Shown here piece after piece: positions 61,968 through 62,415 of a stretch of 64,000 bases of DNA. This stretch comes from a virus. Lineage: Duplodnaviria > Caudoviricetes. The stretch spans positions 96,001 to 160,000 of the IMG/VR virus record IMGVR_UViG_3300042888_002988; one strand, 5' to 3'. Each line of letters opens with the position of its first letter. Position 1 is the stretch's first letter. Made by a program: the position numbers and the translations under genes. The notes beneath the pieces were generated by a model. The model made no database searches. It was given only the letters and a program-made list of their open reading frames with translations, and was not told where the DNA came from.

Positions 61968-62415
61968 CGTCCCGGACAAACCCTTCCCATTGCCGAACCC
62001 TGGATGGCCTTCTACGGAGGGCGAGAGGGTGTAGGTCGGCGCTCAGGCGTCGAGAGGGGACCGGGAGGTTACGGGACGGTCGTCGCCCGCGCTCGCAGTG
62101 CACTGCGAGCACACGCTGAACGTAAGCGTCCCACAGCGCGGCGGCGACCGACACTTTCTCGAAAAGCCCGTAGGCTCTGAGGGCAACCGCAAACCAGTGC
62201 CTTGGAATGCAACCGCCCGACAGGTGGCCCAAGAGAAAAGCCGGCGGGGTAGCGCTACCCCGCCGGCACCCACCGCTCGGATCGCGACATTTATCAACAT
62301 GGTGTCGCGATCCGAGCGGTGGTTCGGTGTTCATAGCTCCGGAGTATTTCCGGAAAGATCGATCGCTCGATCTGCGGCGGAAGACGGCGGGGGCCGAGGT
62401 CCCCGCCGTCTTCCG
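61968..62415. other. Densely base-paired non-coding region (large structured RNA and/or DNA palindrome cluster)
   Basis: Nested stems, a cUACGg hairpin, perfect 20- and 28-bp palindromes, and 20-bp and 15-bp inverted repeats; no credible ORF. Confidence 0.6.

What the first reader, a model, noticed from the sequence alone, without database searches (positions are those of the whole stretch)
61968..62415. About 450 nt of ornate secondary structure after the tRNAs: candidate new large ncRNA or origin
Seen: multibranch domains (61968-62078 closed by CGTCCCG/CGGGACG with a cUACGg hairpin; 62078-62139; a third closed by CTTTCTC/GAGAAAAG), then perfect palindromes (62091-62110, 62240-62267) and long inverted repeats (62270-62322, 62378-62415). 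Known: large ornate RNAs such as GOLLD and ROOL occur beside phage tRNA clusters. G.U pairs and the UNCG loop favour RNA function in the 5' part; the perfect palindromes could instead be DNA cruciforms (origin or packaging signals).
Basis: partly seen in the sequence, partly recalled or inferred. Interest (0 to 1): 0.75.

Follow-up and report, generated by a model that had tools for sequence, protein, structure and literature searches.

The report
Modular hairpin trailer of phage RNA operon
The 450 folded bases behind the tRNAs of this 200-kb lake phage are not one big RNA machine or a replication origin but the patchwork tail of the phage's tmRNA/tRNA transcription unit; only its last 160 bases, a chain of hairpins ending in the terminator, are conserved in related phages.

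Summary
The stretch folds far better than shuffles (z -10), and it holds 4 of the genome's 23 perfect hairpins of 10 bp or more.

The window comes from a 200-kb freshwater jumbo phage. The finding is the 3' trailer of a roughly 2-kb non-coding unit: conserved phage promoter, small ORF, tmRNA, tRNA-Met, tRNA mimic, odd tRNA, then this stretch and a terminator.

Relatives show three pieces that come and go independently:
- (a) 61959-62153 is missing in two array-bearing relatives, and its interior is replaced in a third.
- (b) 62154-62239 plus hairpin 62240-62267 is shared with one or two relatives.
- (c) 62266-62428 occurs in at least 8 lineages, including phages with no tmRNA or tRNA. Half its pairs (24 of 48) show compensatory changes, and the + strand folds better, so it acts as RNA. 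Its last hairpin belongs to the phage's general terminator class.

There is no Rfam match (GOLLD and ROOL included), no coding signal, no GC-skew inflection, and no data on expression. The function of (c) and of the two upstream pieces is unknown.

The scan has noted similar trailer hairpins behind tmRNA/tRNA operons in other phage genomes. This is a new member of a known kind, of moderate interest.

The parts
60337..60374 (+). Promoter of the non-coding unit: TGCAAT (60337-60342), a 17-nt spacer, CATAAT (60360-60365), then GATTTGCTAAG. There is no ATG at the predicted start. A 5' hairpin follows at once (about 60383-60396).
   Evidence: The same motif occurs 7 times on the + strand of the genome, elsewhere ending in ATG. 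It lies at the same place, right after the 210-aa gene, in all relatives read: L010/L031, L125, L126, L127, L131, L133, L135. This is inferred from the motif and its conservation. No transcript data exist.
61068..61958 (+). Upstream RNA genes of the same unit: tmRNA 61068-61499, tRNA-Met 61508-61583, hairpin spacer, tRNA mimic about 61781-61873, and an odd tRNA 61879-61958 with a 10-nt anticodon loop and encoded CCA.
   Evidence: Rfam gives tmRNA 127 bits and tRNA 71 and 52 bits; ARAGORN agrees. L136 carries the same order at 84-85% identity.
61959..62153 (+). Module (a): a lineage-specific insert of about 195 nt with two folded domains, D1 61962-62077 (multibranch, UACG loop) and D2 62077-62150 (Y-shaped, holds palindrome 62091-62110).
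   Evidence: It is absent in L136, where the odd tRNA runs straight into module (b), and absent in L137. In run X9 a contig keeps 61769-61980 and 62056-62249 but has 77 other letters in place of 61981-62055. Run X24 holds 62016-62508 at about 90% identity. D1 folds at -58.4 (z -2.2) on + against -42.9 (z +0.7) on -. D2 folds at -47.6 (z -5.4) against -46.3 (z -3.0). No similar sequence was found in 148 fetched loci.
62154..62239 (+). Module (b): an 86-nt element closed by CTTTCTC/GAGAAA. It has an invariant 21-mer (62190-62210) flanked by two 8-nt direct repeats GCAACCGC (62183-62190 and 62209-62216).
   Evidence: It is 81% identical to L136:583-693. Both direct repeats read GCGACTGC in L136, so they changed in concert. 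Folding is weak and inconsistent between the two sequences and between strands. The 20-mer has no match in IMG/VR or GTDB genomes.
62240..62267 (+). Hairpin H4: a perfect 14-bp GC-rich palindrome. Read on the - strand it is followed by UUUUCUCUU, so it looks like a terminator there.
   Evidence: Inverted repeat I5; - strand terminator-like site. L136 and L138 keep the hairpin through 4 compensatory pair changes. It is absent in L137.
62266..62428 (+). Module (c), the conserved 3' terminal module. It runs: long hairpin H5 62270-62322; single-stranded GGTTCGGTGTTCATAGC 62321-62337; hairpin H6 62338-62354; palindromic hairpin H7 GATCGATCGCTCGATC 62357-62372; terminator hairpin H8 62378-62415; tail TCTGTTTACCT 62416-62426.
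   Evidence: Covariance model R1 was built from 4 sequences. It finds untrained homologues in L142 (52.6 bits without a truncated-match mode; 77.4 with it), L031/L128 (46), L010 (44) and L144/L145 (30). It is single-copy in the genome. On the model-fitted alignment, 24 of 48 pairs have compensatory changes and 90.8% of cells are paired, against 37-49% when partners are slid. An independent MAFFT/RNAalifold run gives 13 compensatory pairs. The + strand is more stable than the - strand in 5 of 6 homologues, with 3-9 G.U pairs against 0-2. At least 10 other + strand sites in the genome have a strong GC hairpin followed by YTTTACC.
62431..62470 (+). Next promoter (GCAAGT, spacer, CATAAT at 62454-62459), with the ATG of the 115-aa gene at 62468.
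   Evidence: Motif scan. The 115-aa protein has a real family: 11 clusters at E below 0.001.

Best explanation
The stretch is the 3' trailer of one phage transcription unit that makes stable RNAs.

A conserved phage promoter at 60337-60365 would start a roughly 2.05-kb transcript. It carries a small ORF, the tmRNA, tRNA-Met, a tRNA mimic and an odd tRNA. It ends at hairpin 62378-62415 plus its pyrimidine-rich TTTACCT tail, which belongs to the phage's general terminator class.

Cutting the last tRNA out of this precursor would leave 61959 to about 62426 as trailer RNA. That trailer is a chain of independently folding modules, not one architecture:
- (a) a 195-nt insert specific to this lineage;
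- (b) plus hairpin H4, shared with a few close relatives;
- (c) a 160-nt terminal module that is ancestral to the whole phage group.

In relatives with no tmRNA or tRNA (the L010 type), the same promoter drives only about 300 nt of non-coding RNA, and (c) is its 3' half. So the unit looks like an old non-coding RNA gene into which RNA genes and hairpin cassettes have been inserted upstream of (c).

The most likely job of (c) is 3'-end formation and protection. That means termination, a barrier to 3' exonucleases, and insulation from the promoter that follows 10 nt later. The invariant single-stranded segment and the H7 palindrome would then serve as a protein or RNase recognition site.

Shown: the structures, the modularity, the conservation and covariation of (c), the strand bias, and the recurrence of the promoter and terminator motifs. 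Inferred: transcription, processing, and every function.
For: Identity of the source: the window is part of a 200,158-bp IMG/VR virus record found in lake and freshwater metagenomes.

Unit boundaries: the promoter motif appears 7 times in the genome and only twice in this region, at 60337 and 62431. It is conserved after the same gene in 8 relative lineages, and there it always lacks an ATG and is followed by a 5' hairpin. The hairpin + YTTTACC class recurs at 10 or more gene ends. In L031 the homologue of H8 is followed by UUCAUUUUUU.

Modularity:
- L136 lacks 61959-62153 and has a 66-aa ORF between H4 and (c).
- L137 joins the odd tRNA directly to (c).
- X9 replaces 61981-62055.
- A 96%-identical neighbour-gene contig has an 889-nt gap where the window has 1413 nt.
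- L133 follows its tmRNA with a plain terminator, and L127 follows it with a different 720-nt hairpin-rich trailer.

Conservation of (c).

RNA rather than DNA: + against - strand energies and G.U counts.

Non-coding: the only database match of the 178-aa antisense ORF is itself. Indels among relatives do not respect any reading frame.
Against: - No RNA data exist. The only runs labelled RNA are a guess, are kept as contigs, and cover coding and non-coding parts alike.
- Promoter and terminator are motif inferences.
- The strict sequence invariance of GGTTCGGTGTTCAT and GATCGATCGCTCGATC across lineages is more than a generic terminator or stabiliser needs. It hints at a specific extra function.
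- Module (a) is retained at about 90% identity in at least two other samples, so it may be a functional RNA in its own right.
- H4 and H5 are perfect palindromes in this genome, and that fits a DNA-level role as well.
- The covariation counts were made on an alignment fitted to the model.
Confidence: 0.6

Rival explanations
1. Module (c), alone or with H4, is a discrete regulatory small RNA derived from the 3' end. Its invariant single-stranded GGUUCGGUGUUCAUAGC would be a seed that pairs with start regions (GCUAUGAAC...) of the phage's leaderless mRNAs or with host targets. The hairpins and terminator would form the usual sRNA body.
For: - The layout is seed-like: an invariant unpaired 16-17 nt between covarying hairpins, then a terminator.
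- The reverse complement, GCTATGAAC, equals the 5' end predicted for the next gene's mRNA (62465-62473) and for one other promoter-proximal start.
- In L010-type phages the unit is a promoter-to-terminator RNA of about 300 nt with no other cargo.
Against: - There is no enrichment of the complement in the phage genome. At up to 4 mismatches, the only good match is the element itself on the other strand.
- The match to the downstream mRNA is 9 nt plus a gapped extension, and it is weaker in L136.
- There are no expression or Hfq/ProQ data, and the host is unknown.
Confidence: 0.2
2. Module (a), perhaps with (b), is a separate stable RNA gene of unknown function. It would be co-transcribed with the tRNAs and released by tRNA processing, like RNAC and RNAD of the phage T4 tRNA region. 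Alternatively it is a small mobile cassette that landed behind the tRNA.
For: - It sits directly after an encoded CCA end.
- Both domains are strongly folded, and D1 folds well only on the + strand.
- It is kept at about 90% identity in X24, and X9 keeps its outer stem around a different interior.
- It is a clean insertion relative to L136, with TTTC on both sides.
- T4 precedent: PMC3014915.
Against: - No homologue sequence could be fetched, so there is no covariation test.
- It is absent from close relatives that keep the rest of the array, so it is dispensable.
- The z-score of D1 is only -2.2.
Confidence: 0.25
3. The whole 450 nt is one large ornate non-coding RNA of the GOLLD/ROOL class.
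For: High helix density, a position beside phage tRNAs, and z -10 for the whole stretch.
Against: - There is no GOLLD, ROOL or other large-RNA hit even at E up to 10.
- The modules are gained and lost independently.
- A protein gene sits between H4 and (c) in L136.
- No inter-module helices appear in the centroid fold.
Confidence: 0.04
4. The palindromes act as DNA: a replication origin, a packaging signal next to the terminase gene, or operator sites for the adjacent promoter.
For: - H4, H5 and 62091-62110 are perfect palindromes.
- H7 is conserved in sequence and is palindromic, with three GATC sites.
- The element lies 10 nt upstream of a promoter and about 700 nt from the terminase gene.
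- The genome-wide GC-skew trough includes this region.
Against: - The skew is a flat plateau from about 120 to 170 kb with its minimum at 164.6 kb. There is no inflection here.
- The segment is 58-79% G+C, and no AT-rich unwinding element, iterons or DnaA-box search result supports an origin.
- Homologous hairpins in relatives contain G.U pairs that would be A.C mismatches on the other strand, and they fold 5-18 kcal/mol better on +.
- In the complete, terminally repeated relative G004, the module is about 75 kb from the ends.
- The spacing of the H6 arms varies.
Confidence: 0.08
5. The stretch encodes a protein: the 178-aa ORF on the - strand (61798-62334) or the 114-aa ORF on the + strand (62098-62442).
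For: Open frames exist. A gene caller has called the 178-aa ORF on 3 contigs.
Against: - There are no homologues among 5.8 billion clusters other than itself, at near or shorter lengths.
- The ORF overlaps two tRNA-like genes.
- Relatives differ by a 195-nt indel, a gene insertion and four 1-nt deletions.
- The antisense ORF that begins MNTEP runs 10, 14, 16, 39 or 178 codons in different lineages, by my reading of the sequences.
Confidence: 0.02

Closest known systems
RNAC and RNAD (species 1 and 2 stable RNAs) of the bacteriophage T4 tRNA region
   Same: They are structured non-coding RNA lying in the same transcription unit as a phage tRNA cluster, downstream of tRNAs, with unknown function (PMC3014915). 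The position and the likely release by tRNA processing are alike.
   Different: There is no sequence or model similarity to test, because no Rfam family for them was hit. The T4 RNAs are two discrete RNAs, about 120-140 nt each by my own recollection. Here the trailer is a mosaic whose only widely conserved part is the terminal, terminator-bearing module. Expression is unproven here.
Intrinsic (Rho-independent) terminators and tandem 3' stabiliser hairpins
   Same: H8 is an 18-bp GC-rich hairpin followed by a pyrimidine/U-rich tail. Its homologue in L031 has a plain U-run. The same hairpin + YTTTACC design ends at least 10 other units of this genome.
   Different: The tail here is UCUGUUUACCU rather than a clean U-tract. 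The terminator is preceded by three more conserved hairpins and two sequence-invariant segments, which a simple terminator does not need.
GOLLD (RF01998) and ROOL (RF03087) large RNAs of phages and prophages
   Same: A large, helix-rich non-coding stretch next to phage tRNA genes.
   Different: There is no match to either model at any threshold. This stretch is smaller, modular, and not conserved as a unit.
Trailer hairpins of phage tmRNA/tRNA operons noted earlier in this scan on other genomes (e1-3424777, e1-451864, e1-160725)
   Same: Hairpins placed after each stable RNA, plus a conserved terminal hairpin with terminator, in the non-coding tail of a phage tmRNA or tRNA operon.
   Different: Those are other phage groups, and no sequence relation was tested. 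They are unchecked AI notes, not literature.
3'UTR-derived bacterial and phage small RNAs
   Same: Module (c) has the layout of such RNAs: a conserved unpaired segment, hairpins, and a shared terminator at the end of a longer unit.
   Different: There is no evidence of processing, of a chaperone, or of targets. This is a resemblance only.

Membership tests
GOLLD / ROOL / any Rfam family | Score at or above the family's gathering threshold with its covariance model | tested here: not met
   Within 61968-62415 nothing reaches a gathering score. The best sub-threshold hits are hairpin artefacts: Ms1 at 29.5 against 162 bits, BjrC80 at 22.8 against 80, and miRNA models.
Conserved structured RNA (a family in its own right), module (c) | Homologues in independent lineages with compensatory base-pair changes, found by a model not trained on them | tested here: met
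   R1 hits the untrained L142, L031/L128, L010 and L144/145 at 30-77 bits. 24 of 48 pairs are compensatory, and no shuffle out of 500 reaches the observed value on 4 of 5 measures. Slid controls give 37-49% paired against 90.8%. An independent alignment gives 13 compensatory pairs.
Conserved structured RNA, module (a) | Homologues with covariation | not testable with these tools
   Relatives exist in runs X9 and X24, but their letters could not be retrieved. Protein-trick and pattern searches found none.
Conserved structured RNA, module (b) | Homologues with covariation supporting one fold | tested here: inconclusive
   There are only two sequences (window and L136, 81% identical). Their predicted folds differ, and the notable change is a concerted one in two direct repeats, not in a helix.
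Intrinsic terminator (H8) | GC-rich stem-loop followed directly by a U-rich tract at the end of a transcription unit | tested here: inconclusive
   The stem is met (18 bp, 94%). The tail UCUGUUUACCU failed the simple T-run scan. However, the hairpin + YTTTACC design recurs at 10 or more gene ends, and the homologue in L031 has UUCAUUUUUU. Termination itself was not measured.
Replication origin | GC-skew inflection, AT-rich unwinding element, repeated initiator-binding sites | tested here: not met
   Cumulative skew is flat from 120 to 170 kb, with its minimum 6 kb away. Local G+C is 0.58-0.79. Only short two-copy direct repeats are present. Initiator boxes were not searched, because the host is unknown.
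Packaging (pac/cos) site | Lies at or next to the physical genome end | tested here: not met
   In G004 (184,016 bp, direct terminal repeats) the homologous module maps to about 74.9-75.0 kb. G000 itself has no terminal repeat to test.
T4-type stable RNAs co-transcribed with tRNAs | A discrete stable RNA species processed from the tRNA precursor | not testable with these tools
   No true RNA run holds the stretch, and contigs cannot show RNA ends.

The most novel reading that the evidence does not exclude
The unit is an ancient phage non-coding RNA gene whose conserved 160-nt 3' module is a trans-acting regulator. Its invariant unpaired GGUUCGGUGUUCAUAGC would pair with the AUG-proximal 5' ends of leaderless phage (or host) mRNAs. 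The gene would double as a landing pad where the phage lineage collects RNA genes (tmRNA, tRNAs, tRNA mimics) and new structured RNA cassettes such as module (a).
Probability: 0.12. Interest if true: 0.65.

Novelty: new member of a known kind. Interest (0 to 1): 0.4.

Why it matters
It corrects an attractive reading, a new giant RNA or an origin, to a more modest and better-supported one.

It also yields three usable results:
- A new, covariation-supported RNA motif of about 160 nt, module (c). It marks the end of a non-coding unit in a clade of uncultured freshwater jumbo phages and can be used to annotate them.
- A promoter consensus and a terminator consensus for this phage group. Together they define its transcription units and suggest leaderless mRNAs.
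- A clear case of an intergenic hot spot, where tmRNA, tRNAs, tRNA mimics, small ORFs and hairpin cassettes are swapped between a fixed promoter and a fixed 3' module.

If (c) or (a) proves to be a stable functional RNA, it would join the still unexplained T4 RNAC/RNAD class.

Tried and rejected
- Curated phage genomes: blastn of 61000-63200 hit only tRNA.
- IMG/VR pattern scans used the H5/seed motif, the mimic T-arm, the odd-tRNA loop, the (b) 20-mer and the (c) two-anchor pattern. They returned only chance hits or the already known tmRNA-less relatives.
- The search for related loci with the 179-aa ORF found nothing in IMG/VR.
- The terminase-based loci L007-L010 keep synteny but have no tmRNA or tRNA anywhere in their records.
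- GTDB genomes: the (b) 20-mer has no hit. The (c) pattern gave 7 chance hits, none confirmed by the model.
- Using the spurious 178-aa antisense ORF as a handle to fetch relatives' DNA returned only the ORF itself.
- The contig of the closest relative of the 115-aa gene (SRR8550535, 8814 bp) is listed without DNA.
- Expression: no RNA holder is listed for the full stretch. The runs labelled 'RNA?' (X19, X20, X24, X25) are a guess, from wastewater, kept as contigs, and cover ORFs and RNA genes alike. So nothing can be said on transcription.
- The substitution table of read laying was cut before my region, so natural variants of (a) could not be scored.
- A - strand promoter before the antisense ATGAACACC was looked for by eye and is not conserved.
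- A 13-nt complementarity between the tRNA mimic (61814-61826) and D2 (62126-62138) is about what chance gives, by my own estimate.
- A long-range 4-bp helix GGUG/UACC enclosing H6-H8 is in the model. I discount it because TTTACC follows other terminators that have no GGUG partner.
- Target search for the (c) seed in the phage genome found no enrichment.

Full report
**What the window is.** The window is bases 96001-160000 of a 200,158-bp IMG/VR virus record rated complete. The record has about 60% G+C and is found in lake and freshwater metagenomes. Neighbouring proteins have no Pfam or PHROG hits, so this is an uncultured jumbo phage of a poorly known group.

**The observation.**
- The stretch 61956-62440 folds to -271 kcal/mol on the + strand (shuffles -200 +/- 7, z -10.1). 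On the - strand it folds to -254.8 (z -7.2).
- A genome-wide count finds only 23 perfect hairpins of at least 10 bp in 200 kb. Four are inside the finding, with stems of 20, 15, 14 and 10 bp, and the 20-bp stem is the genome's longest. A fifth lies 460 nt downstream.

**Context: one non-coding transcription unit.**
- Rfam and ARAGORN place a tmRNA (61068-61499, 127 bits), tRNA-Met (61508-61583) and a tRNA with a 10-nt anticodon loop (61879-61958) directly upstream. Nothing in Rfam matches 61968-62415, even at E up to 10.
- A promoter-like motif, TGCAAT-17 nt-CATAAT-GATTTGCT, occurs seven times on the + strand of the genome. Usually an ATG follows at once, which suggests leaderless mRNAs.
- Two copies bracket the region. 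One is at 60337-60365, followed by AAG instead of ATG and then a 5' hairpin. The other is at 62431-62459, in front of the 115-aa gene.
- The finding ends in hairpin 62378-62415 followed by TCTGTTTACCT. At least ten other + strand sites in the genome have a strong GC hairpin (-22 to -35 kcal/mol, against a random mean of -13) followed by YTTTACC, typically at gene ends.
- I therefore read 60372 to about 62426 as a single unit that ends in a terminator of the phage's usual class. This is an inference from motifs. No transcript data could be obtained.

**Relatives.**
- Loci found through the neighbouring terminase gene (L007-L010, 77% aa identity) keep gene order. They lack any tmRNA or tRNA, even in a complete 184-kb genome.
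- A metagenome scan with the upstream 210-aa protein gave eleven more loci.
- In every lineage that gene is followed by the same promoter without an ATG and by a 5' hairpin. The cargo behind it differs:
  - about 300 nt of non-coding RNA only (L010 type);
  - a homologue of the 179-aa ORF plus a 300-nt trailer (L125);
  - a 580-nt leader, tmRNA and a different 720-nt hairpin-rich trailer (L127);
  - tmRNA with a plain terminator (L133).
- The closest array-bearing relatives came from homologues of the downstream 115-aa protein.
  - L136 has the tmRNA 3' part, tRNA-Met, the mimic and the odd tRNA at about 84% identity.
  - L137 has an odd-tRNA homologue.
  - L138, L142 and L144-147 carry only the region just upstream of the gene.

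**The stretch is a mosaic.**
- *Module (a), 61959-62153.* In L136 the CCA end of the odd tRNA is followed directly by the homologue of 62154 onward, so this module is simply absent there. L137 goes from its odd tRNA straight to the long hairpin H5, so (a), (b) and H4 are all absent. In sequencing run X9 a contig matches 61769-61980 and 62056-62249 but has 77 unrelated letters instead of 61981-62055. Run X24 has a contig covering 62016-62508 at about 90% identity.
- *Gene insertions and gap lengths.* L136 has a 66-aa ORF inserted between H4 and H5. A contig whose 115-aa protein is 96% identical has only 889 nt between the two flanking ORFs, against 1413 nt here.
- *Conclusion.* Pieces that come and go independently, with a protein gene able to sit between them, cannot be domains of one obligatory 450-nt fold. 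The centroid structure shows no inter-module helices either.

**Module (c), 62266-62428.** This is the conserved part.
- Four sequences align from H5 to the TTTACCT tail. GGTTCGGTGTTCAT and GATCGATCGCTCGATC are invariant, while the hairpins change by compensation.
- A covariance model built from them finds homologues it was not trained on: L142 (52.6 bits; 77.4 as a truncated match), L031/L128 (46), L010 (44) and L144/145 (30). It finds only one copy in this genome.
- On the six-sequence alignment, 24 of 48 pairs have double changes and 90.8% of cells pair. Sliding the partner by 1-3 columns gives 37-49%. That alignment is fitted to the model, but the independent MAFFT/RNAalifold analysis already gave 13 compensatory pairs.
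- The + strand folds 5-18 kcal/mol better than the - strand in five of six homologues, with 3-9 G.U pairs against 0-2. So the selection is on + strand RNA, the sense of the tmRNA and tRNAs.
- In L010-type phages (c) is the 3' half of a short promoter-to-terminator non-coding unit. That suggests it is the ancestral part, and that RNA genes were later inserted upstream of it.

**Modules (a) and (b).**
- D1 of (a) folds well only on the + strand (-58.4 against -42.9; z -2.2 against +0.7). D2 is strongly folded on both strands. No homologue sequence could be fetched, so covariation is untested.
- Module (b) is 81% identical in L136 and has an invariant 21-mer. Its two flanking 8-nt direct repeats both change from GCAACCGC to GCGACTGC. 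That is a concerted change I cannot explain by a helix.
- H4 keeps its stem through four compensatory pairs in L136 and L138. On the - strand it looks like a classical terminator.

**Alternatives.**
- *Origin or packaging.* Cumulative GC skew is a flat trough from 120 to 170 kb with its minimum at 164.6 kb and no inflection here. The segment is GC-rich. In the terminally repeated relative the module lies about 75 kb from the ends.
- *Coding.* The 178-aa antisense ORF has no relatives beyond itself, and relatives differ by frame-breaking indels.
- *Small-RNA reading of (c).* This stays open. The invariant unpaired segment is the reverse complement of GCTATGAAC, the predicted 5' end of the next gene's leaderless mRNA. 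The phage genome shows no enrichment of such sites, however.

**Comparison with known things.**
- The nearest published analogue is the pair of small RNAs RNAC and RNAD made from the T4 tRNA region, whose roles are unknown (PMC3014915).
- The terminal hairpin works like an intrinsic terminator.
- GOLLD and ROOL membership was tested and not met.
- Earlier notes of this scan describe trailer hairpins behind tmRNA/tRNA operons in other phages. They agree with this reading but are unchecked.

**Verdict.** The structure is real, non-coding, and selected as RNA at least in its 3' third. It is not a single large RNA or an origin. It is a modular operon trailer whose terminal 160 nt form a new conserved RNA motif of unknown specific function. 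Interest is moderate.

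Noticed in passing
window 61164-61271: ARAGORN's tag for the phage tmRNA (GPAQDNQCIP) looks wrong. The frame set by the Rfam alignment gives a 35-residue tag, ANSNEF...GALAAA, ending in the usual LAAA. Its middle resembles the tag ARAGORN reads in relative L127.
   Followed up: partly
window 61879-61958; L136:505-584; L137:78-160: The tRNA with a 10-nt anticodon loop is conserved in three lineages. The loop reads GCCAACACTT, GCCCACACTT and GTCCATACTT, so its 3' ACTT is constant. 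ARAGORN calls a four-base anticodon in two of them.
   Followed up: partly
G000 7075, 80319, 83572, 84235, 156358, 158452, 187955 (+ strand): A phage promoter consensus, TGCAAT-17-CATAAT-GATTTGCT, is followed directly by ATG in five of its seven copies. The other two are the copy that heads the RNA unit and the copy at 187955. This suggests leaderless or near-leaderless mRNAs.
   Followed up: partly
G000, e.g. 8060-8110, 81003-81020, 84190-84230, 158873-158920, 188230-188270, 191358-191402: A terminator class made of a strong GC hairpin followed by YTTTACC(T). The hairpin at 8060-8096 has such tails on both strands.
   Followed up: partly
window 60374-60514: The 5' leader of the unit has a hairpin right at the predicted start. 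A second hairpin (about 60420-60480) is followed by CTGTTTAC, which resembles the terminator tail, just before the 179-aa ORF. This may be an attenuator.
   Followed up: no
window 60515-61054: The 179-aa ORF between the promoter and the tmRNA is real: a 35%-identical homologue sits in the same place in L125. It ends in a Lys/Ala-rich tail and has no Pfam or PHROG match.
   Followed up: partly
window 62933-63136: The 67-aa ORF abutting the terminase stop is an accessory insert. A contig in run X24 joins 62925 to 63136, and L136 leaves only 111 nt, with no called ORF, between the 113-aa gene and the terminase gene. L138 has it.
   Followed up: partly
L136:779-979: A 66-aa ORF with a signal or lipoprotein-like N-terminus is inserted between hairpin H4 and module (c) in this relative.
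   Followed up: no
L145:20-60: What looks like the 5' half of a tRNA (acceptor and D arm) with no matching 3' half lies about 100 nt upstream of module (c) in this lineage.
   Followed up: no
window 62183-62190 and 62209-62216: Two 8-nt direct repeats flank an invariant 21-mer and carry the same two substitutions in L136. This concerted change has no helix to explain it.
   Followed up: partly
window 61587-61780 vs L136:276-395: The spacer between tRNA-Met and the tRNA mimic is filled by strong hairpins in both phages, but their sequences are unrelated. Hairpin spacers in this array turn over quickly.
   Followed up: partly
window 63137-64000 and beyond (G000 159137-161113, - strand): The neighbouring 658-aa gene has a Walker-B-like IIIDESQDFD and an intein-like block ending in HNS in its N-terminal part. 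Pfam gives no hit.
   Followed up: no
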